Shown: piece after piece, positions 9,617-26,400 of the stretch
Position numbering within the stretch: the stretch's first letter is position 1
Layout of the letters: every line of letters begins with the position of its first letter
Origin: Candidatus Woesearchaeota archaeon
GTDB lineage: Archaea > Nanobdellota > Nanobdellia > SCGC-AAA011-G17 > JACPIM01
Assembly (NCBI GenBank): GCA_964367445.1
Contig: CAYIXS010000002.1
Span: 1 to 35,829, forward strand
DNA: 35,829 bases
Direction: 5' to 3'
Notes under the pieces: generated by a model
What the model was told of the DNA's origin: nothing
Seen by the model: only the letters and a program-made list of their open reading frames with translations
Database searches by the model: none
Program-made: the position numbers and the translations under genes

Positions 9617-11011
9617 TTATTTTTTTGGTTTTAAATATAATCCAAATATTAATAATAAAATTATTAGGATAAAAGCAAATACCCAATTTTGAGATTGAAT
9701 TGATTTTGTTTTTTCAGATACTAAATTGCCTGTTAAAGAAAATAAATTTTTAATTTTATCAGGTAATGATTCTTTTTTTGGTGTTGGTTTTTCTATAGGT
9801 TCGTTTTCTTTGTTACTTGCTTCTTCTGTTTCTTCTAATTCTTGTATGTTTGCTGGCTGGTTTAGTACTGGTGTTTCTTCTTGGGTTTGTGTTTCTGTTT
9901 GTGTTGGTTGTGGGTTTGTGATTCTATTATTACTATTTCCACCGCCTATATTATTTGGTGTTGCTGGGTTTGATGGTATAAAATTAACAAGCAAGCTGAA
10001 TGTTTCTGAACTTTCAGTTATATTAGAATCATCTGAGCAGTTTATAGACCATAAATAATTTGAGTTTGACAGTGTTTTAGTGAAAGTTTGAATTATGTCT
10101 TTTGATATATTTGTATTTTCTTGACTTGTTGTGTTATTTATTATTAAATAACAAAGAGGTATGTTATTTACAGAGGTTACATTATACTTAAACAAAATAT
10201 CGTTTGACGAATCCCAGGTTGAGTTATCTAACGGTGAGGTTAAGCTTATTCTTATCAATGTGTTTTCTATTGTTGTTGATGTTGAGCTCGTTGGTGTTGT
10301 AGATGTGGTTGTTGTTGGTAGTAATGTTGTTGATGTTGTAGTGGTGGTTAGAATAGTAGTGCTAGTGGTTAATGCCGTAGTTGAAGTTGTACTAGTTGTA
10401 GTACTTTGGGTAGTTGAACTTGAGCTTGTTGATGTTGTAGTTGTTGAAGAAGAACTAGTTGTTGTAGAAGTAGTTGTTATAAGTATACCAGAAATATTTA
10501 CGTTATCTATCCTGCAATATTCATTATTTGAATTTGCTGTACACTCAAATTTTATCTGGAAATCTGTATTGTTGGTTGCATTATTATTTAGGTTAAATGA
10601 TTTGATAAGATAATTATTATCATCTTCTGAATTAGATCCTGTTTGTTCTAGTAATATCCAAGATAATCCATCATAGAAGTAAGAGCTAAATTCATCATTA
10701 CTATCTAAATTTATTAGTCTTCTATAATAACTTACTGAGATGTTATCATAATCAAAAGTGCTTATTACTTTTTTTATTACACTTGCGGGTTCTGTATTTT
10801 CTCTAGGTCTTGCTTCTATATGATAAACTCCTGAATATGGGTTTCCTGAAGATATTGTCCAATTTGATGCATCTATAGCATTAGTTAATATCCATCCTGT
10901 TATGTTTCCTGATTCAAAACCATCAAAAAATACATTAACAGAAAGAACAGGATTAGAAGTTAATATGGTTAATATTATTGAAAAAACGATTAAACCTCTC
11001 TTTTTTGTCAT
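9617..11011 (-). CDS. surface protein: signal peptide, lectin-like N-domain, Thr/Ser-rich linker, Ig-like domain, C-terminal TM anchor
   Basis: Signal-like N-terminus (LIVFSIILTILTSNPVLS), a ~73-residue T/S tract, a Pro/Thr/Gln-rich stalk and a C-terminal TM (WVFAFILIILLLIFGLYL). Confidence 0.65.
   Translation of the reverse strand: MTKKRGLIVFSIILTILTSNPVLSVNVFFDGFESGNITGWILTNAIDASNWTISSGNPYSGVYHIEARPRENTEPASVIKKVISTFDYDNISVSYYRRLINLDSNDEFSSYFYDGLSWILLEQTGSNSEDDNNYLIKSFNLNNNATNNTDFQIKFECTANSNNEYCRIDNVNISGILITTTSTTTSSSSTTTTSTSSSSTTQSTTTSTTSTTALTTSTTILTTTTTSTTLLPTTTTSTTPTSSTSTTIENTLIRISLTSPLDNSTWDSSNDILFKYNVTSVNNIPLCYLIINNTTSQENTNISKDIIQTFTKTLSNSNYLWSINCSDDSNITESSETFSLLVNFIPSNPATPNNIGGGNSNNRITNPQPTQTETQTQEETPVLNQPANIQELEETEEASNKENEPIEKPTPKKESLPDKIKNLFSLTGNLVSEKTKSIQSQNWVFAFILIILLLIFGLYLKPKK
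10267..10486 (-). repeat. low-complexity Thr/Ser-coding repeat tract (ACN/AGY codon runs)
   Basis: On the plus strand it reads as degenerate GTTGTTGATGTTGTAG-type repeats. It encodes TTTSTTTSSSSTTTTSTSSSS... and also generates the spurious V-rich antisense ORF 10161..10613. Confidence 0.8.
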
Positions 11012-11190: not shown

Positions 11191-12921
11191 ATGGTGATAG
11201 GTTTTTTAGCTAATTCGTCAGATGCACTTTTATTTAATCTGGCGACCATCATAATTTTTGCCACTATTTTGGCTTTATTGGCTAGGTTATTTAAACAACC
11301 TTCAATATTGGCGTATATATTGACTGGTGTCATACTAGGACCGCTGTTTTTTGGATTAATAAACAAAAGTGATTTTTTAGCTTCTTTATCAAATTTGGGG
11401 GTTGCCTTTTTATTGTTCATAGTTGGATTGAGTTTAAATTTTAGAGTTTTAAAAGAAGTTGGTAAAATTTCCTTAATAACAGGTATTGGACAGGTTGTTT
11501 TTACTTCTTTGGTTGGATATATTATAATAAGGGCAATAGGGATTGAGGTAATACCAGCAATTTATATCAGTGTTGCTTTGACTTTTAGTAGTACTATAAT
11601 TATTGTTAAGTTACTTTCTGATAAGAAAGTTATAGATACTTTATATGGAAGGATTTCTGTTGGTTTCTTAATTGTTCAGGATTTTATTGCAATATTGGCT
11701 TTAATTTTAATAAGCGGAATAAGTGGTAAAATTGATGCTGGTGTATTATTTTTAAATACTTTAAAAAACGGGTTATTTCTATTGGTTTTTGTCTACTTAT
11801 TCTCTAAATATATCTTAAATAGGTTATTTAATTTTTTAGCTAAGTCACAGGAATTGTTGTTTATATCTAGCATAGCTTGGTGTTTTACTGTTAGCCTGGT
11901 TTCTTTATATTTTGGATTTTCAATAGAGGTTGGTGCTTTTTTGGCCGGCATTAGCATTGCTTCTTTACCATATAGATTTGATATAATTGGTAAACTTGTT
12001 TCTTTAAGAGACTTTTTCATAGTTTTGTTTTTTGTTTATTTAGGGTTACAGATAACCTCTTTTAATGATATTATCAGTGTAATACCTGTTGGATTGTTAT
12101 TATCTTTGTTTGTTTTAATAGGAAATCCTCTAATTGTAATGATATTAATTGGATTATTTGGTTATAAGAAAAATGTTGGTTTTTTTACTGGTTTGGCGGT
12201 TGCTCAGATAAGTGAATTTTCTTTGATATTAGTTAATTTAGGTTATAATTTGGGGCATTTAACTAGCTATCATGTATCTTTGGTAACCTTTGTTGGAGTA
12301 ATCACAATAACTTTATCATCATACATGATTATCTATAGCGAAAAAATATATAAAAAATTAGAAAAATACTTATGGGTATTTGAGAGAAAAGGTGTTTTGA
12401 AAAATCACAATTTATTTGTTAATAAAAAATATGATGTTATTATTCTTGGTGGGCATAGGTTAGCTAGGTATATAATTGAATACTTGAGAAAAAACAAGAA
12501 AAAAATATTGGTTGTTGATTATGATCCTGAGATTATTAAACTGCTAAATAGAAAAAATATTTCTACTTTTTATGCTGATGTTTCTAATATTGATGTTTTG
12601 AAAGAGATTCCGTTTAATAAAGTCAAGGTTGTAATATCTACCATACCATCAAGGGAAGATAATTTGATTGTTCTGGATTATTTGAATGGAATTGAGAAAA
12701 AACCAAAAGTGTTTTTAACAACACAGCACATGCATGAAGCCAAAGAATTATACAATAATCTGGCTGATTATGTGATACTTCCTTATTTAATAAGCGGGGA
12801 AAACGTTGTTGAAATTTTAGGTAAAATAATCAAAGATAAAAAATATTTGGAGAAATTGAAAAAAGAGCAACTGAAAACGATATCTGGTTCTGATATTGTG
12901 AGTTATCAGCTAACTAATTAA
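11191..12921 (+). CDS. CPA2-type cation:proton antiporter with C-terminal RCK/TrkA-N domain
   Basis: About 12 TM helices with the Na+/H+-exchanger pattern (ILTGVILGP...), then a Rossmann-like DVIILGGHRLARYIIEYL segment. Confidence 0.85.
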   Translation: MVIGFLANSSDALLFNLATIIIFATILALLARLFKQPSILAYILTGVILGPLFFGLINKSDFLASLSNLGVAFLLFIVGLSLNFRVLKEVGKISLITGIGQVVFTSLVGYIIIRAIGIEVIPAIYISVALTFSSTIIIVKLLSDKKVIDTLYGRISVGFLIVQDFIAILALILISGISGKIDAGVLFLNTLKNGLFLLVFVYLFSKYILNRLFNFLAKSQELLFISSIAWCFTVSLVSLYFGFSIEVGAFLAGISIASLPYRFDIIGKLVSLRDFFIVLFFVYLGLQITSFNDIISVIPVGLLLSLFVLIGNPLIVMILIGLFGYKKNVGFFTGLAVAQISEFSLILVNLGYNLGHLTSYHVSLVTFVGVITITLSSYMIIYSEKIYKKLEKYLWVFERKGVLKNHNLFVNKKYDVIILGGHRLARYIIEYLRKNKKKILVVDYDPEIIKLLNRKNISTFYADVSNIDVLKEIPFNKVKVVISTIPSREDNLIVLDYLNGIEKKPKVFLTTQHMHEAKELYNNLADYVILPYLISGENVVEILGKIIKDKKYLEKLKKEQLKTISGSDIVSYQLTN

Positions 12922-13385
12922 ATTCTTATGTTTAATTTATTCTTATTGAAACTTTTCGTGGTATCTATTACTTTTATTTTGTGCTGATTATCTAGTGCTT
13001 CTATTAAACAAACATCTAATATTTCTGCGTCTAAATTCTCTCTTATCTTATCTTTTGAATACTTTCTTTTCTCTAGTCTCTTTTTTAAAACTTTAATGTC
13101 ACATTTAGTAACTATGCATAAATCAACATATTTTTTGTTTAAATAATGGCTCAAATGAGAATCTATAACTAAATCTTTCTCTTTTTTTATTAATTTTATT
13201 AAGAATTTATTTAACTTTTTAATATCAACTATATGCGTTTTAAATTTTTTATCATAATTTTCATATAATTTATTTTTAACAATTAACCCATTTAAATCAA
13301 GATATTTCAGATTATATTTTCTAGCAATTGCTCTAGCGATTTTAGTCTTGCCTGTTCCAACTGAACCTGTTACAATTATTATCAT
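12918..13385 (-). CDS. Fap7/adenylate-kinase-6-like P-loop nucleoside kinase
   Basis: MIIIVTGSVGTGKTKIA P-loop, 155 aa, archaeal Fap7-like layout. It converges on the antiporter with a 4-nt overlap. Confidence 0.75.
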   Translation of the reverse strand: MIIIVTGSVGTGKTKIARAIARKYNLKYLDLNGLIVKNKLYENYDKKFKTHIVDIKKLNKFLIKLIKKEKDLVIDSHLSHYLNKKYVDLCIVTKCDIKVLKKRLEKRKYSKDKIRENLDAEILDVCLIEALDNQHKIKVIDTTKSFNKNKLNIRI

Positions 13386-13471
13386 GGTCTTAATGAAAAA
13401 GGATAATGTTTATAAATAATAGGATTTACTATATTTAATATATAAAATATATATTTATGGGGGGATAAACT

Positions 13472-13771
13472 TTGGTAGAAAGACAAAGGGATGTTAGTAA
13501 TCTTCCAGGTGATCTGAAAAATAGTTCTGCACCAAGATTGGGACTACATATTATAGTAGGAAGAGATGGATCAACAACCGAAGCAATATTTGGTGGTGAT
13601 GCATGTCGTTGGCTATATTCCGGATTAATGCCTGTAAAAACGGCACAAAGAGTATTATTACAATATCATGGGGCAGCAACGATTTATGGAAAAGATGGGA
13701 AAGTAAGTGAAATTAGGAGTCCGTGTTATGGGGGAAGGATTGTTGAGCAACAACAAAGACCTTATGCATAA
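13472..13771 (+). CDS. hypothetical small protein A (99 aa), TTG start
   Basis: Strong G-at-first-codon-position periodicity. A G-run (13459-13464) lies 7 nt upstream of TTG 13472. No family recognised. The protein ends ...RPYA. Confidence 0.5.
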   Translation: MVERQRDVSNLPGDLKNSSAPRLGLHIIVGRDGSTTEAIFGGDACRWLYSGLMPVKTAQRVLLQYHGAATIYGKDGKVSEIRSPCYGGRIVEQQQRPYA

Positions 13772-14024
13772 AATGGCAACACAAGAAAGAAAATTAATAG
13801 CTTTAACAGAATTAAGAGAGGCTATTGAAGAAGCAGAAAGGATGGGAATTCCCCGGAGCAGAATAAATATTACTTTTTTAGATGACAGAGTAGAAATAAG
13901 CCATCCAGAAGATCCTGGCGATGATCCCATTTATGGTGTTGCTATTGGTGAAGTAATACAGACAGTTAGGCATTATGGATGTAATGTTCAAACACAAAGA
14001 ACTAGTTCACGACCGTACCTATAA
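13728..14024 (+). CDS. hypothetical small protein B (98 aa)
   Basis: AGGAG (13715-13719) lies 8 nt upstream of ATG 13728, and the frame shows coding-like periodicity. Alternative starts are ATG 13764 and 13773. It overlaps protein A out of frame and ends ...RPYL. Confidence 0.5.
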   Translation: MGEGLLSNNKDLMHKMATQERKLIALTELREAIEEAERMGIPRSRINITFLDDRVEISHPEDPGDDPIYGVAIGEVIQTVRHYGCNVQTQRTSSRPYL

Positions 14025-14676
14025 ATCTTTTTCTTTTTAATATTTTTTCCAGATTTTTTAAATCTCCGCTTATAATGTAAGTTTTTATTTTATTTTTTTT
14101 AATTATTCTTGCTGCTGATTGGTCTAAAACAAAGTGTTGCCCTGCTTTGTATTTAATTTTGTTTGCTATTTTATAGAATTCATTAAATGAAATTTTAGGA
14201 ATAAATTTAGCATTTTTTAATTTAGGATCTTTATCGTATAGTCCTTTGACATTTGTCATATTAATAAACTCGCATTTCAACATATTTGCAATTGCGGCGG
14301 CAGTTCCATCACTTGTGTTATCTGGTTTATACCTTAAGCCACCAACAATAACAATATTTCTTTTATTTAATAAATTTTCAATGTCTTTCAAAGACTTACC
14401 CAATTTAGCAGAAACATATTTTTCAAACAAATTGATCAGTAACCAAGCATTTAATCTGGTTATTCTTATTCCGATATATCCTAAAATCTTATCATTTATT
14501 TTATTTTTTCTTAGGGCGTTAATGTATATTCTAGCAGTTCTTCCGCCACCGCAAACAATTACGAATTTATCTTTTTTAGAGTATTTTATTATTAATTCTT
14601 TGAACTTATTTAAATAATCAGAATCAATATCATTAGGTACTATTAGGCTTCCACCCAAACTAATTACTTTTACCAT
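14002..14676 (-). CDS. pyrH: archaeal-type UMP kinase
   Basis: VISLGGSLIVP...VIVCGGGRTAR...GIRITRLNA...TSDGTAAAIA...NVKGLYDKDP matches the amino-acid-kinase-fold archaeal PyrH at ~224 aa. Confidence 0.85.
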   Translation of the reverse strand: MVKVISLGGSLIVPNDIDSDYLNKFKELIIKYSKKDKFVIVCGGGRTARIYINALRKNKINDKILGYIGIRITRLNAWLLINLFEKYVSAKLGKSLKDIENLLNKRNIVIVGGLRYKPDNTSDGTAAAIANMLKCEFINMTNVKGLYDKDPKLKNAKFIPKISFNEFYKIANKIKYKAGQHFVLDQSAARIIKKNKIKTYIISGDLKNLEKILKRKRFIGTVVN

Positions 14677-14686
14677 ATTTTATTTA

Positions 14687-14782
14687 TCAAATCCAACCCA
14701 AGTATCTGGCAACAATTATAAGAATTATTACTACTATAATAAACCAAGCGAGTTGTGAAATTCCTTTTTTATTTAATATCAT
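14687..14782 (-). CDS. 31-aa single-TM micro-protein (not in ORF track)
   Basis: ATG 14782 forms an ATGA overlap with the DUF357 stop. It encodes MILNKKGISQLAWFIIVVIILIIVARYLGWI, with TGA at 14687-14689, 10 nt before the pyrH ATG. Confidence 0.35.
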   Translation of the reverse strand: MILNKKGISQLAWFIIVVIILIIVARYLGWI

Positions 14783-15069
14783 TTATCAACACCAGCAAAT
14801 AATTCAGAATTATCAACATCAAAAACGCCTATTTTAGCTCCTGCGTCCAGCCAGCCATGGGCGTAGTTTAATGCGGCAAAGGCATTAACAAAATCTGCCT
14901 TAGAAGCAAAATGTTCAGCGTCACTTAAGTATCTTTCAACGGTGTCTATGAAATGTTTTCTTGTTGAATCATTTATATCAACATTTTCAGGAGATTTTTT
15001 AGCTTCCTCTAATGCAGCTTTAGTAACTTGAAAATATTTGTTTAATTTTTCTTTAGTTACTTGATCCAT
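14779..15069 (-). CDS. DUF357 family protein
   Basis: YLSDAEHFASKADFVNAFAALNYAHGWLDAGAKIGVFDV is the archaeal DUF357 signature as I recall it. Confidence 0.75.
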   Translation of the reverse strand: MDQVTKEKLNKYFQVTKAALEEAKKSPENVDINDSTRKHFIDTVERYLSDAEHFASKADFVNAFAALNYAHGWLDAGAKIGVFDVDNSELFAGVDK

Positions 15070-15113
15070 AATATTTATCAGTTATTTATAATTTAAAAGG
15101 TTTTTGGGGTTAA

Positions 15114-15896
15114 TTACAAGACTACTTCCCCACTCTTTACATCTCTTACGTCTCCAGATTTTATGCCACCAGAAGGAAAAAGCCGGTATAAAAGTTTATG
15201 CGCTGGTTCTTCTAATATGTGTATCTTAGTGTCTATTGTGGTATCTGTTCTCTCTGGAAAAACATGTACAGAGGAATATGCTTGTGGTAATGCATAATAA
15301 GGGAATCCATTTGTTATTCTGGATATTATTAAAACCTTTACTCCTCGGTTTAAATAACCGTAATGAACTCTATGGGCTCCGTCATTTATTAGATCATAAG
15401 ATCCACTCTCATTTCTATGTTCCAAATTTTCTATTGCAGGATTTATTCCTTTGCCAAGTGCATCAATACTTTTCCTTACTACTTCACTTAACATAGAAGC
15501 ATAATTGAATTTTCCATCACTAGTTCTTGGTATTGTGAATCTTTCTAATACAGGTGGTAAAATTGTCCATTCTGTAACTTCACCTGAATCAGACGTTGCA
15601 AGAAAGTCAAAAGCGGCATCTAGGTTTAGGATATCTATATCTTTTTGCTTAAACAACCTAAAGAGTGAATCTACCCTATCTAAGTTAGGTTGATAAACCG
15701 CTGGTTGTGGGGTGTATATATTAGATCTAATCTGCTCGGGAGTTAAAAACATAAAATCAAAAATTGCGTCTTCATAGATTTTAATATTTGGAAATCCCCT
15801 TAATGAAACTTTTCTTAATCTATTGACTAAAGAATCGCCGTTGCCAAAGAATGGAACTTTGTTTAAAATTTCAATAGAGACACAATTATTTGTCAA
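15114..15896 (-). CDS. ParB/sulfiredoxin-fold protein (possible nucleotide-dependent phosphotransferase), TTG start
   Basis: LINDGAHRVHYG resembles the ParB/Srx DGxHR motif. TTG 15896 lies 7 nt downstream of AAGGAGG and forms a TTGA overlap with the HAD stop. Confidence 0.55.
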   Translation of the reverse strand: MTNNCVSIEILNKVPFFGNGDSLVNRLRKVSLRGFPNIKIYEDAIFDFMFLTPEQIRSNIYTPQPAVYQPNLDRVDSLFRLFKQKDIDILNLDAAFDFLATSDSGEVTEWTILPPVLERFTIPRTSDGKFNYASMLSEVVRKSIDALGKGINPAIENLEHRNESGSYDLINDGAHRVHYGYLNRGVKVLIISRITNGFPYYALPQAYSSVHVFPERTDTTIDTKIHILEEPAHKLLYRLFPSGGIKSGDVRDVKSGEVVL

Positions 15897-16543
15897 AGCA
15901 ATAACCTCCTTATTTCGTGAATTGATTGAATAGAAAAATCCGCTTCTTTTATAACTGATCCAACAGCAATAGTTTTTATTCCCAAAGCTTTTGCTGGTAA
16001 GATGTCTGAATTTTTTCTATCTCCAACATAAACGTGTTTATTTGCTGGAATTTGTGTGGCGATTAATACGTATCTAAAAACTGCCCCATCCTGTTTTGAT
16101 CCACGAATATTATCACTATATACTATTGGATTAAATACCCTTGGGTTTATACCAAGTCTTTCTAATTTTTTTTCCCCTAACTCTCTTGGACTGTTTGTAA
16201 CTAAATAAATTTGATAGACTTGGGAAAGTTTATTCAAGATATCAACTAATTCACCGTCGTAATTTATTAAGTCCAAAACATCTGCCTTAGCCAAACAATC
16301 GTCCATCACTAAGTTCGAATCATCAAAACCCGCTTCTTTTAGGACTTTAGTTCCACTTTGTAATACTGTATGCCTATCTTCAAAGTATCTTCTAGCTTCT
16401 TCAATACCACCTAGATATGGTTTTTTAGCTAAAATTCTTTTAGATATTTCGATTCTTATTCTATTATTAATTTCTTCATTGGAACTATATAAAGTACCAT
16501 CTAAATCAAATCCAACAGCAGCTATACCTTGTATTATTGGCAC
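15893..16543 (-). CDS. HAD-IA family phosphatase
   Basis: Motif I FDLDGTLY, motif II LVTNS, motif IV VGDRKNSD. Confidence 0.85.
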   Translation of the reverse strand: MPIIQGIAAVGFDLDGTLYSSNEEINNRIRIEISKRILAKKPYLGGIEEARRYFEDRHTVLQSGTKVLKEAGFDDSNLVMDDCLAKADVLDLINYDGELVDILNKLSQVYQIYLVTNSPRELGEKKLERLGINPRVFNPIVYSDNIRGSKQDGAVFRYVLIATQIPANKHVYVGDRKNSDILPAKALGIKTIAVGSVIKEADFSIQSIHEIRRLLL

Positions 16544-16610
16544 AGGTTTATTAAAACAACGTATTTATTAAATATTATTTAACTTAAAAGAGTATTATAG
16601 AACATAATAG

Positions 16611-18065
16611 TTATAATTCTTTAAGTTCAGTATTGCCACTCAGTTTTTGTTGCGCCCTTGCTAATTCATATCCTACCCACATTGCGTGGTCTGAATTATC
16701 AATAGCAGATAACTGCCTTAGTTTGTCCTTGATATCTTTTACGTCTTTTCCTCTAATCTCTTCTAATAAAACATTACTTGAACTAAAATGTTGTACTACT
16801 ATTTCTCCTTGGTTTGTATCAACAACAAAAAACCCTCTAGGATCTTTAACATTTAATCTTTTTTTTCTATTTGCTTTAACAAATTGTAGTGCTGTTATTG
16901 CCTTAGCATTTTCTGGATCAATGCCTATCCATCTACTTCTTATATTAATTTGCCCGGGTTCAATACCGCTCATTTCAGCAACTCTTTCCTGTATGGCCCT
17001 TAAACCGTATAGATTAAATAACCAGGCGGATATTGCATTGTGAGTCCTAAAGCTAGCGCTCATAACTAGCTTGTCTCTAATTTTTACAAAATATGCATCA
17101 GTAAAACAAGGAACAGAAGAGTCTCCTGCCTTTGATAATAAGTCTTTTCCTGTGTCCCATAAAGAGACTAAAGAGTGTCTATCATTACTATCCTCTTTTA
17201 ATCTTTTAGCAATAACTTCGAGTGCGTTTATGCCCCAATATTTACCAATTCTATGACCGTAGCTATATGCTCTGTCGTCTGGTAGATCAATATCTAGTAT
17301 TTCTCTCCTATAAGCATTAAGTTCGTCAGGATTAAAACCTAGTTTTCTTAGAGTATATTCTGGTTCAAATGAAGGATTAAGAACATTAACATCTAGATTG
17401 TATAATGCTCTTCTTTTTCCTTTTTCTAATACTACATCAATACCATACCTGTCTAATAAATATAGAACTTCCATCCAAGCTTCTGTAGGAGTATCAGCAA
17501 CCACATTATGGTAGATGACATCAGAAGGAAAATCTTTAAATTGTGGCATTTTTAGTTCGATTTTAACTCTCTGATCTTCACTAGGGGATCTAGTTTTTGG
17601 TTGAGTTATATAACTTATAATCCCTTCTAAATCAGAGGTTTTAAATGCTTGTATCTCTGGCTTATGTGCAAAAAGTTCTGGTCTTAATTGTGCATCAATG
17701 AAACAATCTGTGCCACGTATACGTGACATTTGAACTCCATTAACATCAACTATGTCGGTTCCAGAGGTAAAGAAACTTATTAATGCCTCTGCACTTCCAA
17801 ATGGATTACTTCCAGTAACTGCTATTCTCTCAACTTGTGGATTATAAGCTAGATTTGCTAGCATTTGGGGTAATCCTAAACCATATAGGTTAGTTAATGT
17901 TATCAAAGGTGAATTTTTTTCAAAAAGCATTGGTGCCTTGGAAGCAAGTTTTTCTCTAAATCCCCCACTACCGTCTAATTTTGTCCATAATGTTACTATT
18001 CCTGCATACCCATTTGGATTGATTATCTTTATCTTATTGTCAAAATAAATAGGTTTAAATTCCAT
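16611..18065 (-). CDS. thymidylate-synthase-fold enzyme with MtrA-like N-domain and DUF4346-like C-domain
   Basis: The core SSVPCFTDAYF...SFRTHNAISAWLFNLYGL...RSRWIGID parallels the TS motifs PCH..FQF / RS.D...G.PFNIASY. The N-terminus (GIVTLWT...NLYGLGLPQMLANLAYNPQVERIAVTG) is MtrA-like. The C-terminus (DPRGFFVV...HAMWVGYELARAQ) is DUF4346-like. Confidence 0.65.
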   Translation of the reverse strand: MEFKPIYFDNKIKIINPNGYAGIVTLWTKLDGSGGFREKLASKAPMLFEKNSPLITLTNLYGLGLPQMLANLAYNPQVERIAVTGSNPFGSAEALISFFTSGTDIVDVNGVQMSRIRGTDCFIDAQLRPELFAHKPEIQAFKTSDLEGIISYITQPKTRSPSEDQRVKIELKMPQFKDFPSDVIYHNVVADTPTEAWMEVLYLLDRYGIDVVLEKGKRRALYNLDVNVLNPSFEPEYTLRKLGFNPDELNAYRREILDIDLPDDRAYSYGHRIGKYWGINALEVIAKRLKEDSNDRHSLVSLWDTGKDLLSKAGDSSVPCFTDAYFVKIRDKLVMSASFRTHNAISAWLFNLYGLRAIQERVAEMSGIEPGQINIRSRWIGIDPENAKAITALQFVKANRKKRLNVKDPRGFFVVDTNQGEIVVQHFSSSNVLLEEIRGKDVKDIKDKLRQLSAIDNSDHAMWVGYELARAQQKLSGNTELKEL

Positions 18066-18139
18066 TTAAAATATACTTAAAAAAGAGAATATTTAAAAAT
18101 TGTTATATTTTAAAAACACTATTGTAGAGGTATTGTAAT

Positions 18140-18376
18140 ATGAAAGTTATAATTTACACAAAAAATAATGATGCGTATTCTGATATGATACGCAATTTAT
18201 TAAAAACAAACAACATAGAGTTTGAAATGGTTGATGTTTCAAGAAATAAAGATAAATTTAAAGAGATGCAGGAAATATCTGGACAAGCAAATACTCCTGT
18301 AATACAAATAGATGATAAAGTTTTTCTTGGTTTTGATAGAGAAAAAATAAAAGAAGTTCTTGGTTTAAACAAATGA
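18140..18376 (+). CDS. glutaredoxin/NrdH-fold protein lacking the CxxC active site
   Basis: VIIYTKNNDAYSDM stands where Grx has YTK.GCPYC, and TPVIQIDDKVFLGFD is the Grx-fold cis-Pro region. It overlaps the next gene by ATGA. Confidence 0.7.
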   Translation: MKVIIYTKNNDAYSDMIRNLLKTNNIEFEMVDVSRNKDKFKEMQEISGQANTPVIQIDDKVFLGFDREKIKEVLGLNK

Positions 18377-19011
18377 AGTTATTTATTTTTGATTGGAGCG
18401 GAGTAATAAGTGACGATAGAAGACCAGTTTATGAAGCCAATATGAGAATATTTAGAGAAAAAGGAATAAGAGAATTATCTTTTGAAGAATTTTTTTTAAA
18501 AACAGATTCGAATATAGCAGAATTTCTAGCAAAACAAGGAGTTGCTGGAACACCAGACGAACTTTCATTATTGGGCAAAAGAGCGTATGATTTAGTTATT
18601 AGTTCTGGAATACAACCTGTTTTATATGATGATGTAAAGAACGTATTGGACTTTTTATTTAAAAGAAACAATATGCTTGCTGTTTTAAGCAGCCATCCTG
18701 AAGAAAACTTACAACAAGAAGCAAGAAGTTATGGGATAGATTCTTATTTTAGATTGATTACAGGCAATTCAAGAAATAAATCTGATGGAATAGTAAGAAT
18801 AGTGGAAGCTAATGGAATGCAAAGAGAAGAAACAATTTATTTGGGTGATATGACATATGATATTAGAGCAGCAAAAAAAGCAGGTGTTCATTCAGCAGCA
18901 ATCTCTGGTCCAGATGGACAACAAAGAGGATATCATAGCAGACAAAGATTAGAAATGGAACAACCAGATTTTTTGCTAGATTCATTAGGAGATTTGAAGA
19001 CTTTCTTTTAG
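18373..19011 (+). CDS. HAD-superfamily hydrolase with atypical motif I (DWS)
   Basis: Motif I is IFDWSGVISDD, with Ser at the +2 position rather than Asp. Motif II is VLSSH and motif IV is LGDMTYDIRAAKKAG. Confidence 0.8.
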   Translation: MKLFIFDWSGVISDDRRPVYEANMRIFREKGIRELSFEEFFLKTDSNIAEFLAKQGVAGTPDELSLLGKRAYDLVISSGIQPVLYDDVKNVLDFLFKRNNMLAVLSSHPEENLQQEARSYGIDSYFRLITGNSRNKSDGIVRIVEANGMQREETIYLGDMTYDIRAAKKAGVHSAAISGPDGQQRGYHSRQRLEMEQPDFLLDSLGDLKTFF

Positions 19012-22170: not shown

Positions 22171-22686
22171 TTAATCTTCTTGCTCTTCAATTATTACTTT
22201 TGTTTCTGATAATATTTTTCGAGATAATTCAAGAAGCTCTTCGTATAGATCATCATCTATTGAAAGCTTTGTGCCATATTGGTATTCTTCTCTAATTCCC
22301 GTGCTTGTTGAAGTCTCTTTTTGAATTTCCAGTGTAGAAACCTTTTCTAATAGTTCTTTATCTAGCTTTATCTTCTTATTTTCAATAAGGCTTTCTATAA
22401 GAGCAAAGGTACACTCCTGATTCCCAGATTCATATCCAAATTTTGCAGCAATTGCAAGAAAGCATTGATACATAGAATAAAAAAATGCACTTGCAGACCA
22501 GTCTGAAAATCCTACCTTTGCAAACTCAATAGCTCCTTTAAGATTGTGCTCTGCTTTGCTTACATGTTCTAATGCCTTATTTTTATCTGGCTTTACTACT
22601 ACAAGGCCCCTATGCTTGCTTTTTTCCTTTAACTCTGTCTCTGCTTTTTTCAAGCACCAATCTACTTTATTTTTAGCATGGCTCAT
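22171..22686 (-). CDS. HEPN-domain protein (partner of the upstream nucleotidyltransferase)
   Basis: Helical protein with a HEPN-like core (ALEHVSKAEHNLKGAIEF...FFYSMYQCFLAIAAKFG). It overlaps the MNT gene by ATGA. I could not find an Rx4-6H motif. Confidence 0.65.
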   Translation of the reverse strand: MSHAKNKVDWCLKKAETELKEKSKHRGLVVVKPDKNKALEHVSKAEHNLKGAIEFAKVGFSDWSASAFFYSMYQCFLAIAAKFGYESGNQECTFALIESLIENKKIKLDKELLEKVSTLEIQKETSTSTGIREEYQYGTKLSIDDDLYEELLELSRKILSETKVIIEEQED

Positions 22687-23258
22687 TGCAAAACCCCCAG
22701 AATAATATCATCCCCAGAGACAAGAATTCCTTTTATTGCATTCAATATAACTTTATTTCTCTCTTTTATGTATTTCTCTAAATCTGTTTTTGTCTGATAT
22801 ACTGGATGGACCTTCTTTTCATTGAGCATGTTTATAGCTTCAACTTCTTTTTTTGTTTTCTCAAAGTTTTTCTTGCTTACGATAATTAATGCATCTATAT
22901 CTCTTGCTTCTTTTTCTTTTTTCAAAACAGAGCCAAATAAGACAACTGCATTTGCACTTTTTATTTTTTCTAGCTCTCTCACCCACATTTTTATATAAGC
23001 AGAGGACATTTCAGCCTCTTTTTTTAAAAGAAATTTAATGTACTGAGAAGAATAGTTATTTAAGTTTATTTTGTAAATGCTTGCTCTTCCAACTTTTCTT
23101 GAGGATAATATTCCTTCTTTCTCTAATCTTTTTGCTATTTTAAGGGCGCCCATAGAACTGATTCCTATCTGCCTTGCTATGCTATTGGCATTATATTCTA
23201 TTTCAGGACTTTTCAAGACACTTAAAACAAAAAGCATCTCGTTATTATTTTTTTTCAT
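22683..23258 (-). CDS. winged-HTH + minimal nucleotidyltransferase (MNT) protein
   Basis: The N-terminal wHTH (ANSIARQIGISSMGALKIAKRLEKEGIL) is followed by the MNT motif LFGSVLKKEKEARDIDALIIV. Confidence 0.75.
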   Translation of the reverse strand: MKKNNNEMLFVLSVLKSPEIEYNANSIARQIGISSMGALKIAKRLEKEGILSSRKVGRASIYKINLNNYSSQYIKFLLKKEAEMSSAYIKMWVRELEKIKSANAVVLFGSVLKKEKEARDIDALIIVSKKNFEKTKKEVEAINMLNEKKVHPVYQTKTDLEKYIKERNKVILNAIKGILVSGDDIILGVLQ

Positions 23259-23484: not shown

Positions 23485-26400
23485 TTATTTAATATTTCTC
23501 ATAACTTTGTCTATTAAACTTTCATCCCAACCAGAATCTAGTGCTGCTTTTCTTATCTCTTCTCTAGTATATCCCTTACTTAGGTTTTCTTGTATAATGT
23601 TTCTTAATCTTTCATAATTTCTTCTTTCGTTTTCAGACATCTCTTCCCAAGGTTCTTCTTTATACTTTGGTTTTCTTTTGGACATTAAATATATAATAAT
23701 GGCTGCAATTAGTAATATTAAAATTATAATTCCTATTATCAAAACAGTAATATAATTCTTTAAGATTAAATCAGTGGTTTTTATTTTTTGGGGTGTTTCT
23801 TGAACTTTTATTGGTGGTTGCTCTATTATAGGTTGAATGGGTTGTTGGGTTTTTCTCTCACATATTCCAGAATTATTACATATTTCATCACTTTGACACA
23901 CAATATCCAAACTACAGCTTCTGCAAGTTTCACCTGAATCTAGGATGTTATTACCACAGAGAGTTTCTTCCTCAATTTTTTGTGCTATTATTGAAAATAT
24001 GGAGAATCCTTTGGTTTCAGCATCATAAATATAATAACCATTTTCCTTGCCTATATATCTTGTATTCAAATCTGTCCAGAAATCATTTACTAATTTCTTT
24101 AATTTTATATCGTTCTTATTATATCCGTTACTGATTAACCATTTTTTATCTACTCTAAATTGTATTTTGCTTTCTAAAAATTCATTATTTTGTATATTAT
24201 TTAACTCAATTTCAAAAGATTTGTAATTGGTGCCTTGGCCTATATATGTTTGATCTATTTTTTTAATAGTAATTCTAATATAATTCTTATCATTGTTAAG
24301 CTTAAATGATAATCTATCGACATTACTTGTTTTATCAGTTACCTCTAAAATTTTAATTTCCCCCGCCTTTATGTTTCTTATTGTTTGTACTACCCTATTT
24401 GGACTATAACTACTACTGCCTCCTCCTGAAGATGGCCCTGGGCTTGGTGGGTTCACAACCACAACAAAGCAAGAACCACAATCTTCTTTGCAACTTTCAC
24501 AGTTTTCGTCTTCACTACAAAAGCCATCATTACAAGTGCTTGGAGTTTCAACACATAGACCGCTCTCGCCGCACGAAGATCCAAATGGACATAGGCATAT
24601 GTTGCATCTCGGTACTAACTCTTTATCAGAATTACAATAATAAGGAATGTTATCTGAGCAGGTATTAATCTTTGTTTTATCTGTGCATAAAACTTCTTCT
24701 TCACCCTCGCGACCACCATATACCCAGAAAGGATAAGTATATTCTAAATAATCCCCATTTATATTAATAACCTCATTATTTTCATTTAGCAAGGCTCCAT
24801 AAACCCTATAATTTCCATTAAAGTCAGGAATCCAATATCCTGCTTCTGCCCACTCAGTATCAAGAGCAATAATCTCCCCAGGATGGATTGTTCTTGCTAC
24901 ACTATCCACTACAACGGTTTTAAAATCTTCCCAGTTGAAATTCTCTTGATTTTCTTTTTGAACTTTAAGCAAGATCTTGCCAACGATGTCCTGATCTATC
25001 TTATTTTGTATCATAGATTTAGGAACAACATTTACATAGTAATTAATTGTTGGGCTATACTCTGGTCTTAAAACAAAATTATCAGCAAAAGGTTCAAAAA
25101 TAAAGGATTGCGCCCCAATTTTAACTGGAGTAACCTCCAAATTTGTAGTATATACTTGGCCAGTCGATAAATTACCTATTAATATCTCATGTAGTAAAGT
25201 CCTCGTTCCTCCAATTTCATTATAGACTCTTAGCCGGGCATTTACTAATGTTTCTTGACCAACATTCTCAATCATAAGATCATAACTTATTGGTTGATTC
25301 TGTACATTATTATTCCCACTCCATTCTGATTGTATTACATTTAGCCTAAAATACGGCTCTATTGGTCGGACATACATTGAGAAATATCTTTCATTATTAT
25401 CAAGGTTTTTCTCTTTGTCTGCAGAAACAACCACCTTATAATCATTAAAAAAGGGAGTATCTGGAATAACTGAAAGCATAAAATCTTTCCTACCTACTTC
25501 AACATCGTTGAGGTTTATTGATTTAAGCAATTCTAAATTTTCAGTACCATCTATCTTTTCAGTACCATCTATCCATGCAACCTTATAAAAATCTACTTTA
25601 ACATTCGTTGCTTTTTCAGATCCGGAATTTTCAACATTGCCTTCTAATATAACTTCTTCTCCAACAAAAGGTGCTATAAATGGGGCTCTAATTTCGATTG
25701 TCAATTCGGGTGAGGAGGCAAAGGCCGTATAAATATAGTTTTGTGTTGTATACTGGCTTATAGAGTCTATGACTACTTTAGAATCACTATCATATAATTG
25801 AATAGGTTCTACTTTGTAAGGACCATTTAATCCCCATTTACGTAAGCTTAATCCATCAAAAGACAAAGAAATATTATTGGTCGTTCCACCATTTAATTCA
25901 ATAAAAGAACTTGTAGAACCCAAATTAACACCAAACTGAGAGTATAAATCCCCATCCAGACTTAACATAGAATCTTTCAGCGCATCTATAGTAACTTTAA
26001 TTTCCAGAGAGTCAAAAAGACCATCGCCATCATTATCCAAGCCTTCATCAATAACAGACACGATTTTTGCTCCCCTAATAGTTACTTTTCTTTTAATCTC
26101 ATTATTAAAAACTATATCTTCCACACCAACATCATCAACTTTTATCCTTATTTCGTAGCCCCCATATCTATTTGGTGTCCAACTAAAGTTCACAATTGTT
26201 TCTTCATTAATATCAATAGCAGAAATATACCTTTGATCATATTCAACATTATTCAAAAAAAGTCTTAATCTAACTCCTTGTTCTCTCATTATGCCTTTAT
26301 TTTTGAGCTTAACACTGAAATCTATTTTTTCTTTGTCTACTACAAAAGGCAGAGTTAATTCGCTTAATTCTAAATCGTGTTCTTTATTTACTTGCTTACT

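What the first reader, a model, noticed from the sequence alone, without database searches (positions are those of the whole stretch)
14002..19011. Divergent pyrimidine-nucleotide cluster that may hide a non-canonical enzyme set
The minus strand carries the TS-fold enzyme, then a HAD phosphatase joined by TTGA coupling to a ParB/Srx-fold protein. These are followed by DUF357, a 31-aa TM peptide and pyrH. Diverging from the same 74-bp intergenic region are a Cys-less glutaredoxin-fold protein and, ATGA-coupled to it, an atypical HAD. Only pyrH and the TS fold have textbook roles. The other five genes are tightly co-transcribed or translationally coupled with them. Hypothesis A: a salvage/dTMP pathway in which the ParB/Srx-fold protein and the HADs stand in for missing canonical kinases and nucleotidases. 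Hypothesis B: a modified-pyrimidine pathway (TS-fold transferase plus phosphotransferase plus phosphatase) comparable to phage hypermodification logic. The block is G+C-richer than its neighbours. That may reflect conservation rather than horizontal transfer.
Basis: inference. Interest (0 to 1): 0.65.

Follow-up and report, generated by a model that had tools for sequence, protein, structure and literature searches.

The report
Conserved archaeal thymidylate operon with unknown partners
Three of the eight flagged genes (an unusual thymidylate synthase, a HAD phosphatase and an uncharacterised 'ParB-CE' protein) form an operon kept together across tiny symbiotic (DPANN) archaea, probably making and phosphorylating the DNA precursor dTMP in a non-standard way, while the other five genes are unrelated neighbours.

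Summary
All eight ORFs, the overlapping stop/start junctions, the 74-bp divergent gap and the Cys-less glutaredoxin fold are as described. The block is not one unit.

**Conserved triad.** Thymidylate synthase (TS), HAD phosphatase and ParB-CE (Pfam PF24392) are adjacent in all 23 non-redundant archaeal relatives examined. They occur in two gene orders with gaps of 4 nt or less. They usually sit among NrdR, ribonucleotide reductase, thioredoxin, dCMP deaminase and dUTPase genes. In one relative ParB-CE is fused to dCMP deaminase.

**Unrelated neighbours.** None of those loci carries pyrH, DUF357, the Grx-like gene or the second HAD. DUF357–pyrH–AAA_18 kinase is a separate conserved string, and canonical tmk lies beside it in some relatives.

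**The proteins.** The TS is a fusion of an MtrA-like domain, a TS domain and a pterin-binding domain. It keeps the catalytic Cys, the Arg and the uracil-specifying Asn. ParB-CE gives a confident model (pLDDT 91) with no detectable structural or PDB sequence relative.

**Inference.** In two contigs without the triad, a thyX–tmk pair occurs; in one it lies next to the same ribonucleotide-reductase gene set. I therefore infer that ParB-CE, with its HAD partner, is a non-P-loop phosphotransferase on deoxypyrimidine nucleotides, most likely a thymidylate-kinase analogue. This is untested. The phage-like hypermodification reading is unlikely.

The parts
16611..18065 (-). Three-domain thymidylate-synthase-like protein (484 aa). 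Residues ~1-165 are MtrA-like, ~187-400 are the TS fold, and 407-479 are the pterin-binding DUF4346 domain.
   Evidence: Pfam and NCBIfam hits. AF2 model with pLDDT 89.8. Foldseek matches TS, MilA and AfhB at E 2e-11. Invariant P319-C320, R340 and N351 in 26 homologues align with the PC, R and N of a canonical ThyA. A profile of the N-terminal domain matches MtrA 8q3v_A at E 2.5e-4.
15893..16543 (-). HAD-IA hydrolase (216 aa), the obligate neighbour of ParB-CE. All four HAD motifs are intact: DLDGT, T/S, K150 and GDxxxSD.
   Evidence: Adjacent to ParB-CE in 22 of 23 non-redundant archaeal loci; the remaining contig ends before the position. Nearest named subfamilies are CTE7 and YjjG-type pyrimidine nucleotidases, all below their cut-offs.
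15114..15896 (-). ParB-CE (PF24392) protein of 260 aa. TTG start overlaps the HAD1 stop (TTGA), with an AGGAGG Shine-Dalgarno-like site upstream. Predicted NTP-dependent phosphotransferase.
   Evidence: AF2 pLDDT 90.8. Invariant across the wider family: Q64, PPxxE118, D172-G-x-H175-R176, PYYAxP, K224 and R251. One homologue is fused to dCMP deaminase.
18066..18139 (.). 74-nt AT-rich divergent intergenic region between the TS and Grx-like genes, with TATA-like stretches on both sides. A GAGGT lies about 10 nt before the Grx ATG.
   Evidence: Sequence read directly. The promoter role is inferred.
14779..15069 (-). DUF357 protein (96 aa). It is the first gene of a separate conserved string and not part of the triad.
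   Evidence: PF04010. In 31 of 48 relatives with enough flank it is followed by pyrH and/or the AAA_18 kinase. tmk lies divergently upstream in 6 relatives. None of the 80 loci has the triad.
14687..14782 (-). 31-aa hydrophobic ORF filling the DUF357-pyrH gap. Unverified and not conserved.
   Evidence: In several relatives pyrH starts 28-80 nt after DUF357, which leaves no room for it.
14002..14676 (-). Archaeal UMP kinase (pyrH).
   Evidence: TIGR02076 at 196 bits, above the 158-bit cut-off.
12918..13385 (-). AAA_18 / PRK03839-type small kinase.
18140..18376 (+). Cys-less glutaredoxin-fold protein (78 aa). Its neighbourhood with the triad is not conserved.
   Evidence: PF00462. It reads DAYS where relatives have xPYC. 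In three relatives it diverges directly from DUF357 with no triad in between.
18373..19011 (+). Second HAD-IA hydrolase (212 aa) with Ser in place of the Asp+2 general acid (DWSGV). It overlaps the Grx stop as ATGA. No conserved link to the triad.
   Evidence: No homologue in any of the related loci.

Best explanation
The block juxtaposes three independent units.

**Unit 1, the real finding: 15114-18065, minus strand.** This is a three-gene operon conserved across DPANN archaea.
- The TS-like enzyme uses its catalytic Cys320, Arg340 and the uracil-specifying Asn351 to add a one-carbon unit to C5 of dUMP, most probably giving dTMP. Its MtrA-like and DUF4346 pterin-binding domains replace the folate-binding loop and the C-terminal lid of classical ThyA and hold the pterin C1 carrier. 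The catalytic residues and the fold are shown. The product and the carrier are inferred.
- The PF24392 'ParB-CE' protein and the HAD-IA protein are translationally coupled. I infer that together they handle the phosphorylation state of the deoxypyrimidine nucleotide next to the TS step.
- My preferred reading is that ParB-CE is a non-P-loop, NTP-dependent dTMP kinase, a functional analogue of Tmk. The HAD would act either as a pyrimidine 5'-nucleotidase that sets the dUMP/dTMP pool, or as a phospho-aspartyl transfer partner.

**Unit 2: DUF357-(31-aa ORF)-pyrH ... AAA_18 kinase.** This is a separate conserved string of nucleoside-monophosphate-kinase genes.

**Unit 3: Grx-like/HAD2.** This is a lineage-specific pair with no conserved link to either of the others.
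For: **The triad is conserved.**
- TS, ParB-CE and HAD are adjacent in 23 of 23 non-redundant archaeal loci. HAD is missing only where a contig ends.
- There are two orders. One is long TS-HAD-ParB-CE. The other is short TS (322-346 aa)-ParB-CE-HAD.
- Gene gaps are from -29 to +2 nt in called genes.

**The context is dNTP supply.**
- NrdR or ribonucleotide reductase in 10 loci.
- WCMPC thioredoxin in 9 loci.
- dCMP deaminase in 8 loci.
- dUTPase or DCD in 7 loci.

**Gene fusion.** A ParB-CE::dCMP deaminase fusion lies inside a TS-HAD-[fusion]-Trx operon.

**Equivalent position.**
- L114 carries thyX-tmk placed convergently against a minus-strand NrdR-Trx-RNR-dUTPase array.
- L042 has thyX-tmk with a 2-nt gap close to DUF357-pyrH.
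- No Tmk or ThyX homologue occurs in any triad locus. No triad occurs in any tmk locus.

**Bacterial and phage-like contexts.**
- In a CPR-like bacterial contig ParB-CE lies between rplJL and dnaX, 1.2 kb from thyA-folA.
- In a phage-like contig a family member lies two genes upstream of a clamp-loader gene.
- The tmk-holB linkage of bacteria is established knowledge.

**Protein features.**
- TS fold and catalytic residues.
- HAD motifs intact.
- The ParB-CE family is enzyme-like. It has invariant acidic, basic and His residues and a confident model.

**Independence of the other genes:**
Against: - No biochemical evidence exists for any of the three proteins.
- The ParB/Srx relationship could not be confirmed. 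Foldseek found nothing against PDB or BFVD. There is no PF02195 hit. hhalign against human sulfiredoxin gave 1% probability.
- A kinase that is obligately paired with a phosphatase is not explained by a simple Tmk analogy.
- The fusion partner is dCMP deaminase. That step is not consecutive with dTMP phosphorylation, which fits a role on dC nucleotides at least as well.
- The wider family of ~200-aa proteins is mostly of unknown taxonomic origin. One member, L030, lies in a bacterial-looking contig. If most are from ordinary bacteria, those would be expected to have Tmk.
- Canonical tmk exists in related DPANN. Whether it is absent from triad-bearing genomes could not be tested.
- The window protein scores below the curated cut-offs for PF00303 and TIGR03283. 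Its product could therefore be something other than dTMP.
Confidence: 0.5

Rival explanations
1. ParB-CE and HAD act upstream of the synthase on deoxycytidine nucleotides. ParB-CE, from a fold family known for CTP binding and hydrolysis, would convert dCTP or dCDP towards dCMP, or interconvert dCMP and dCDP. The HAD would remove a further phosphate. dCMP deaminase would then make dUMP for the TS.
For: - The ParB-CE::dCMP deaminase fusion fits consecutive steps.
- dCMP deaminase is adjacent in 8 loci.
- Analogous AAA_18 kinase::dCMP deaminase fusions occur in the same neighbourhoods.
- NTP-reducing RNR types (NrdD, class II) are adjacent.
- CTP specificity of ParB proteins is documented (PMC12704722).
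Against: - dCMP deaminase is absent from most triad loci, while TS is always present.
- dUTPase or DCD already provides a route to dUMP in several loci.
- HAD enzymes normally hydrolyse phosphomonoesters, not diphosphates (established knowledge).
- In the CPR contig ParB-CE has no HAD partner.
Confidence: 0.2
2. ParB-CE is not a catalyst on nucleotides. It would be an NTP-sensing regulatory subunit, a ParB-like nucleotide switch that controls the TS and/or the HAD nucleotidase according to dNTP or CTP levels.
For: - ParB-fold proteins act as NTP-dependent switches (PMC12704722).
- Stoichiometric, translationally coupled expression with HAD and TS.
- NrdR, another nucleotide-sensing regulator, lies in the same arrays.
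Against: - The invariant set of E118, D172, H175, R176, K224 and R251 across a very divergent family looks catalytic.
- In CPR and phage-like contexts the protein occurs without TS or HAD neighbours.
Confidence: 0.1
3. ParB-CE and HAD serve the synthase's cofactor. They would phosphorylate or dephosphorylate a scavenged pterin precursor, or recycle the oxidised pterin, for a TS that carries its own pterin-binding domains in organisms lacking folate or methanopterin synthesis and DHFR.
For: - The TS carries DUF4346 pterin-binding and MtrA-like domains.
- No DHFR occurs in any archaeal triad locus.
- ThyX-type relatives, which need no DHFR, lack the pair.
Against: - The short-TS clade lacks the pterin domains but keeps ParB-CE and HAD.
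- The CPR contig has canonical ThyA plus DHFR and still has ParB-CE.
- The fusion partner is a nucleotide enzyme.
- Neither protein fold has a redox cofactor site that I could identify.
Confidence: 0.08
4. One reading: the triad makes a modified pyrimidine. The TS homologue would be a dUMP hydroxymethylase, ParB-CE the kinase for the modified nucleotide, and the HAD a dTMP-specific nucleotidase that excludes thymine, as in hmU-containing Bacillus phages.
For: - The gene logic (TS homologue, nucleotidase, kinase, dCMP deaminase, dUTPase) mirrors hmU phages (established knowledge).
- The DPANN TS lacks the W80/W83 loop and the free C-terminus, which in classical TS shield the methylene intermediate from water (the role of these elements is from the literature as I recall it).
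- The best fold matches include hydroxymethylases and hydroxylases such as MilA and AfhB.
Against: - In these loci it appears to be the only TS gene, across three DPANN lineages, placed in housekeeping RNR operons.
- There are no downstream modification enzymes.
- No viral relatives were found and no defence-system hits.
- Methanogen-type TS (TIGR03283) shares the same truncations.
Confidence: 0.05
5. One reading: all eight genes between 14002 and 19011 form one co-regulated pyrimidine pathway.
For: - Compact arrangement with three overlapping stop/start junctions.
- pyrH is a pyrimidine enzyme.
- In relatives DUF357 neighbours nucleotide-kinase genes, including tmk.
Against: - None of the 23 triad loci carries pyrH, DUF357, Grx or HAD2 within 8-10 kb.
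- None of the 80 DUF357 loci carries the triad.
- Relatives have Grx diverging directly from DUF357.
- A TATA-like element lies in the ParB-CE/DUF357 gap.
Confidence: 0.05

Closest known systems
ThyA-type thymidylate synthase, archaeal/methanogen subtype (PF00303; TIGR03283)
   Same: - TS fold: Foldseek E 2e-11, with TM up to 0.78 on the target.
- Pro-Cys nucleophile motif.
- The Arg equivalent to E. coli R166 and the Asn equivalent to N177.
- Placement beside dCMP deaminase, dUTPase and RNR genes.
   Different: - It is flanked by an MtrA-like N-terminal domain and a C-terminal DUF4346 pterin-binding domain.
- The W80/W83 folate loop and the H207/Y209 motif are absent.
- The D169 equivalent is Asn.
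- It scores below the curated cut-offs.
- The cofactor and the product are untested.
thyX-tmk operons next to NrdR-RNR-Trx-dUTPase (seen here in L114 and L042)
   Same: - Same neighbourhood and the same tight coupling of a dTMP-forming enzyme to the next gene.
- The triad and thyX-tmk were never seen together in the loci sampled.
   Different: - ThyX is flavin-dependent, and Tmk is a P-loop kinase (PF02223).
- The triad instead has a ThyA-like enzyme plus two proteins of other folds.
- Functional equivalence of ParB-CE/HAD to Tmk is inferred, not shown.
ParB/Srx-fold small-molecule kinases and NTPases (sulfiredoxin, archaeal SerK, SbnI, ParB CTPase)
   Same: - The Pfam family name.
- A motif pattern of PPxxE ... 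h-h-h-D-G-x-H-R-x-x-x-A followed by a hydrophobic strand. This resembles the PPIDV ... FGGCHRYAA of sulfiredoxin (by inspection).
- A single-domain protein without DNA-binding parts.
- Precedent for phosphotransfer to small acceptors (PMC12704722).
   Different: - No PF02195 hit.
- No Foldseek match to any solved ParB/Srx structure.
- hhalign probability of 1% against sulfiredoxin.
- No catalytic Cys.
- An extra conserved C-terminal segment (PYYAxP ... K-x-H ... LYRLFP ... R).
- A 45-residue insertion in the DPANN/CPR clade.
YjjG / CTE7-type HAD-IA pyrimidine 5'-nucleotidases
   Same: All four HAD motifs and a C1 cap. The best NCBIfam matches are TIGR02253, TIGR02254 and TIGR01993.
   Different: - All scores are far below the equivalog cut-offs.
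- It is obligately paired with ParB-CE, which is not known for YjjG.
- The substrate is unknown.
Deoxynucleotide gene sets of hmU/hmC phages (TS-homologous hydroxymethylase, dNMP kinase, dTMPase/dCTPase, dCMP deaminase)
   Same: The combination of a TS homologue, a phosphatase, a putative kinase and a deaminase in one array.
   Different: - The context is cellular, housekeeping and vertically conserved.
- The specificity residue is Asn.
- There is no P-loop dNMP kinase and no DNA-modifying transferase.
- There are no viral homologues.

Membership tests
Thymidylate synthase ThyA (PF00303 / TIGR03283) | TS alpha/beta fold | tested here: met
   AF2 model with pLDDT 89.8. Foldseek matches MilA, AfhB and many ThyA structures at E 2e-11 to 6e-10, probability 1.00.
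Thymidylate synthase ThyA (PF00303 / TIGR03283) | Catalytic Cys in a Pro-Cys motif, the phosphate-binding Arg (Ec R166) and the uracil-specifying Asn (Ec N177) | tested here: met
   P319-C320, R340 and N351 are invariant in 26 homologues. They align with the PC, R and N of a canonical ThyA and of the short DPANN TS.
Thymidylate synthase ThyA (PF00303 / TIGR03283) | Score above the curated family cut-off | tested here: not met
   PF00303 scores 21.3 against a 24.3-bit cut-off. TIGR03283 scores 82.7 against 174.55. All 26 family members hit PF00303 at E<=0.1, the best at 3e-12.
Thymidylate synthase ThyA (PF00303 / TIGR03283) | Classical folate-binding elements: the W80/W83 loop, D169, H207/Y209 and a free C-terminal lid | tested here: not met
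   The loop is deleted, D169 is replaced by N343, the H-x-Y motif is not conserved, and the C-terminus continues into DUF4346.
Thymidylate synthase ThyA (PF00303 / TIGR03283) | Conversion of dUMP to dTMP with a methylene-pterin | not testable with these tools
   Needs an enzyme assay.
Pfam PF24392 (ParB-CE) | Score above the gathering threshold over the domain | tested here: met
   50.9 bits against a 23-bit threshold, in two stretches split by the clade-specific insertion. All 15 diverse members match.
ParB/Srx superfamily | Sequence match to ParBc (PF02195) or to solved ParB/Srx proteins | tested here: not met
   No PF02195 hit even at E<=10. PDB sequence and profile searches found nothing. 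hhalign against human Srx gave 1% probability.
ParB/Srx superfamily | Structural similarity of the core to solved ParB/Srx domains | tested here: inconclusive
Chromosome-partition ParB | HTH DNA-binding domain, C-terminal dimerisation domain and a ParA partner | tested here: not met
   Pfam finds no domain in the 260-aa protein other than PF24392, and the secondary structure gives no sign of an HTH. No parA gene appears in any of the loci with called and annotated genes.
Thymidylate kinase Tmk (PF02223) | P-loop NMP-kinase fold and sequence family | tested here: not met
   ParB-CE has no P-loop and no PF02223 hit. Any equivalence is functional analogy only, inferred from gene context.
HAD-IA phosphatases | Motifs I-IV (DxDxT, T/S, K, GDxxxD) and a Pfam HAD_2 match | tested here: met
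   HAD_2 scores 57.2 bits against a 23.8-bit cut-off. The motifs are conserved in 7 of 8 orthologues; the eighth (L007) is a truncated gene call that lacks motif I.
YjjG / pyrimidine 5'-nucleotidase equivalogs | Score above the equivalog cut-off | tested here: not met
   TIGR02254 scores 54 against 160, TIGR01993 scores 43 against 143, and TIGR02253 scores 80 against 170.
Phage pyrimidine hypermodification pathways | Viral context, a hydroxymethylase, a P-loop dNMP or hmU-DNA kinase, and transferases | tested here: not met
   No relatives in INPHARED, IMG/VR, PHROGs or BFVD. No such genes occur in the neighbourhoods.
Archaeal UMP kinase (pyrH) | Equivalog score | tested here: met
   TIGR02076 scores 196.3 against a 158.05-bit cut-off.
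Glutaredoxin/NrdH redoxins | CxxC or CxxS active site | tested here: not met
   No Cys in the protein. It reads DAYS at the active-site position, where relatives have xPYC.

The most novel reading that the evidence does not exclude
ParB-CE, working with its HAD partner, is a thymidylate kinase of a wholly different fold that has displaced P-loop Tmk in many DPANN archaea and some CPR bacteria. One possible mechanism is that the ParB/Srx-like protein uses an NTP to load the HAD aspartate, like a P-type ATPase split into two proteins, and the HAD passes the phosphate on to dTMP. This would be a new solution to an otherwise universal step of DNA precursor synthesis.
Probability: 0.25. Interest if true: 0.8.

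Novelty: new variant of a known kind. Interest (0 to 1): 0.6.

Why it matters
- dTMP synthesis and its phosphorylation are essential steps, and DPANN and CPR organisms survive with minimal genomes. A conserved operon that welds an atypical TS to two uncharacterised enzymes marks a gap in our picture of how these organisms make DNA precursors.
- If ParB-CE/HAD replaces Tmk, or otherwise processes deoxypyrimidine nucleotides, it would be a new case of non-orthologous enzyme displacement. It would also give a first function for Pfam PF24392, which has at least 331 clusters at 50% identity.
- The MtrA-like/pterin-binding TS fusion bears on which C1 carrier folate-less archaea use.
- I found no description of this association in the searchable literature.
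- The practical lesson for the scan is that only three of the eight flagged genes belong together.

Tried and rejected
**Searches for relatives of ParB-CE that found nothing**
- PDB sequence and profile searches.
- Foldseek against PDB and BFVD.
- PHROGs and PADLOC.
- tblastn against INPHARED phages.
- IMG/VR scans.
- hhalign against human sulfiredoxin, whose sequence I recalled from memory and then verified against the PDB.
- Pfam at E<=10 looking for ParBc.

**Literature**
- Searches for DUF4346, PF24392, ParB-CE, and for DPANN or Woesearchaeota with thymidylate, found nothing relevant.
- The 2025 survey of the ParB-CTPase fold used PF02195 and does not cover this family.
- A DPANN protein-family paper does not mention thymidylate metabolism.

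**Test of Tmk co-occurrence**
- I matched contig lengths between the Tmk hit list and the ParB-CE/TS hit lists. The result was uninformative: a single coincidental 1.7-kb match from different sources.
- A P-loop regex scan of all fetched loci found only a P-type ATPase.

**Ideas considered and set aside**
- A corrinoid-dependent methyl-transfer TS. The N-terminal domain is MtrA-like, but the position that aligns with the cobalt-ligand His84 of MtrA is not His in this family.
- Horizontal transfer as the cause of the higher G+C. GC3 equals the genome background.
- An RNA gene in the 13386-14001 gap. Rfam found nothing; the gap holds two protein-like ORFs instead.

**Not possible**
- RNA evidence for co-transcription. 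Only DNA runs from groundwater metagenomes hold the sequence.

Full report

Family searches give these assignments:
- Archaeal UMP kinase: 14002-14676, TIGR02076 at 196 bits, above its cut-off.
- DUF357: 14779-15069.
- PF24392 'ParB-CE' protein: 15114-15896.
- HAD-IA hydrolase: 15893-16543.
- 484-aa TS-like protein: 16611-18065.
- Glutaredoxin-fold protein: 18140-18376.
- Second HAD-IA hydrolase: 18373-19011.

Direct reading of the junctions confirms several points:
- The TTGA overlap of the HAD1 stop and the ParB-CE start, with AGGAGG upstream.
- The ATGA overlaps of DUF357 with the 31-aa ORF, and of Grx with HAD2.
- The 74-nt divergent gap.
- Gaps of 67 nt (TS/HAD1) and 44 nt (ParB-CE/DUF357), the latter with a TATA-like stretch.

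The Grx-like protein has no cysteine, and HAD2 has Ser at the Asp+2 position. The block is modestly richer in G+C (31.4% against 29.8%). GC3 is the same as elsewhere, so the difference reflects amino-acid composition and not transfer. The rest of the window is ordinary DPANN-type content: glycosyltransferases, a P-type ATPase, a HEPN/nucleotidyltransferase pair and a giant subtilase. The sequence comes from groundwater metagenomes.

**What is conserved**

Homologues of ParB-CE (112 clusters) and of the TS fusion (87 clusters) come almost only from Nanoarchaeota, Woese-, Pace- and Micrarchaeota assemblies. Many share contig lengths between the two lists. I fetched loci by exact-protein look-up and by a genome scan and searched them with the window's proteins and with locus-derived queries.

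In all 23 non-redundant archaeal loci a TS gene, ParB-CE and a HAD1 orthologue are adjacent. HAD is missing only in L019, where the contig ends. Two arrangements track ParB-CE phylogeny:
- Long TS fusion-HAD-ParB-CE, in relatives with 48% or more identity to the window protein.
- Short TS (322-346 aa)-ParB-CE-HAD, in relatives with about 40% identity.
- A Micrarchaeota variant has a 791-aa MtrA-PterinBD-TS protein.

Called genes are separated by -29 to +2 nt.

Around the triad lie the following:
- NrdR or ribonucleotide reductase: 10 loci.
- WCMPC thioredoxin: 9 loci.
- dCMP deaminase: 8 loci.
- dUTPase or DCD: 7 loci.

An exhaustive profile search found one protein in which ParB-CE is fused to dCMP deaminase. 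It is encoded in a TS-HAD-[fusion]-Trx operon.

**What is not conserved**

No triad locus contains a homologue of pyrH, DUF357, the Grx-like protein or HAD2 within 8-10 kb. I also fetched 80 metagenomic loci through DUF357:
- None contains the triad.
- 31 of the 48 loci with enough downstream sequence have pyrH and/or the AAA_18 (PRK03839-type) kinase directly downstream on the same strand.
- Six have a canonical tmk divergently upstream.
- In three, the Grx-like gene diverges directly from DUF357.

DUF357-pyrH-AAA_18, which in the window runs from 15069 down to 12918, is therefore a second and independent conserved string. The window simply places the triad next to it. The 31-aa ORF has no room in several relatives, so it stays unverified.

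**The synthase**

A 26-sequence alignment shows invariant P319-C320, R340 and N351, plus Y267/Y269/G270, R296 and W303/D304. Aligned with a canonical ThyA and with the short DPANN TS, these are the catalytic Cys, the R166 equivalent and the N177 equivalent. The classical W80/W83 folate loop and the H-x-Y motif are missing, and D169 is replaced by Asn. The model is confident (pLDDT 89.8). Foldseek returns TS-fold enzymes: AfhB, MilA and many ThyA structures at E around 1e-11.

A profile of the N-terminal 170 residues matches MtrA (8q3v_A, E 2.5e-4) through the shared G-x-x-x-M-L-x-N-L-x-x-N-P-x-I motif. The position that aligns with MtrA His84 is not His. As I recall from the MtrA structure paper, His84 is the cobalt ligand. 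The C-terminal 75 residues are the DUF4346 pterin-binding domain.

I conclude that this is a genuine C5-pyrimidine-modifying enzyme specific for a uracil nucleotide. Its pterin handling is delegated to accessory domains. That the product is dTMP is inferred from its place in housekeeping dNTP operons.

**ParB-CE and HAD**

ParB-CE is strongly conserved and gives a confident model (pLDDT 90.8). Nothing similar was found anywhere I could look:
- PDB by sequence or profile.
- PDB or BFVD by Foldseek.
- PHROGs or PADLOC.
- Phage genomes or IMG/VR.

The profile search shows a wider family of 331 clusters, mostly ~200-aa proteins without the 120-165 insertion. They share Q64, PPxxE118, D172-G-x-H175-R176, PYYAxP, K224 and R251. 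By inspection the PPxxE ... DGxHR pattern resembles the PPIDV ... GGCHR of sulfiredoxin. However, hhalign (1% probability) and Pfam (no ParBc hit) do not confirm a ParB/Srx relationship. I treat the fold assignment as a lead. HAD1 orthologues keep all four catalytic motifs. The nearest named subfamilies are CTE7 and YjjG-type pyrimidine nucleotidases, far below their cut-offs.

**Mechanistic inference**

Two contigs without the triad are informative.
- L042 was fetched through its DUF357 gene, which is 68% identical to the window's. It has thyX-tmk with a 2-nt gap close to DUF357-pyrH.
- L114 was fetched through its Tmk, which is 48% identical to that of L042. It has thyX-tmk lying convergently against a minus-strand NrdR-Trx-RNR-dUTPase array. 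That is the same gene set that flanks the triad elsewhere.

No Tmk or ThyX homologue occurs in any triad locus, and no triad occurs in any tmk locus. In a CPR-like bacterial contig, ParB-CE lies between rplJL and dnaX, with thyA-folA 1.2 kb away. In a phage-like contig a family member precedes a clamp-loader gene. This recalls the well-known bacterial tmk-holB linkage.

Taken together, the most economical reading is that TS corresponds to ThyX, and ParB-CE (with HAD) corresponds to Tmk. That would make it a non-P-loop phosphotransferase acting on dTMP. The HAD's role is open; it may be a pool-setting nucleotidase or a phospho-aspartyl relay partner.

The dCMP-deaminase fusion and the analogous AAA_18::deaminase fusions fit a rival at least as well. 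In that rival the pair works on dC nucleotides upstream of the deaminase. The regulatory, cofactor-handling and hypermodification readings are less likely, for the reasons given under the rival explanations.

**Verdict**

The novel content is a DPANN-wide (and partly CPR) TS-HAD-ParB-CE operon whose two accessory enzymes have no known function. It has not been described in the literature I could search. The decisive tests are phyletic anticorrelation with Tmk, complementation and enzyme assays. None could be run here.

Noticed in passing
window 13472-13771 (+) and 13791-14024 (+): The 'empty' gap between the AAA_18 kinase and pyrH holds two plus-strand ORFs with a strong coding signature (GC1 0.51-0.53, GC3 0.17-0.18). 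The second overlaps the 3' end of pyrH by 23 nt. There are no Pfam-independent hits in PHROGs or Rfam, and no homologue in any fetched locus. They may be a small lineage-specific gene pair.
   Followed up: partly
window 12918-15069 (-); loci L034-L113: DUF357 is recurrently flanked by nucleoside-monophosphate-kinase genes. pyrH and/or a PRK03839-type AAA_18 kinase lie downstream in 31 of 48 loci, and canonical tmk lies divergently upstream in 6. This suggests that DUF357 has a nucleotide-kinase-related role.
   Followed up: partly
L042 731-2757 (-); L114 4246-6657 (+): Two contigs without the triad carry tightly coupled thyX-tmk pairs. The ThyX proteins are unusually long (451 and 574 aa). In L114 the pair lies next to NrdR-Trx-RNR-dUTPase.
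   Followed up: partly
L005 16245-16783; L006 4110-5117: DPANN proteins that fuse an AAA_18 kinase-like domain to dCMP deaminase are encoded beside the triad and beside a second, stand-alone dCMP deaminase.
   Followed up: no
L032 8001-9152; L033 1897-3048: A 383-aa ParB-CE family member lies in a contig that looks like a huge phage. The contig has many small unknown ORFs, HNH, Cpn10, HU, a homing-endonuclease domain and a clamp loader, and the longest contig carrying the protein is 658 kb. No relatives were found in INPHARED or IMG/VR.
   Followed up: partly
window 18140-18376 (+); L034, L038, L053: The small Grx-like family in these archaea has a single Cys (G-x-P-Y-C). The window's copy has lost even that (DAYS). 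In relatives the thioredoxins next to the triad are normal WCMPC proteins.
   Followed up: partly
window 22171-23258 (-): Overlapping HEPN and minimal nucleotidyltransferase genes, the usual HEPN/MNT toxin-antitoxin arrangement.
   Followed up: no
window 23485-29001 (-): An 1838-aa protein with an S8 subtilase domain, CARDB repeats and a proline-rich C-terminal region. It is probably a giant surface protease or adhesin, and it sits in the most G+C-rich part of the window.
   Followed up: no
window 29502-30074 (+): A DDE (IS240-type) transposase fragment with GC3 of 0.32, well above the window's ~0.2. It is the only gene here with a foreign-looking composition.
   Followed up: no
window 9617-11011 (-): A 464-aa ORF with no Pfam family and unusual codon-position composition (GC2 0.44, GC3 0.16). 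The region also has a strong positive GC skew.
   Followed up: no
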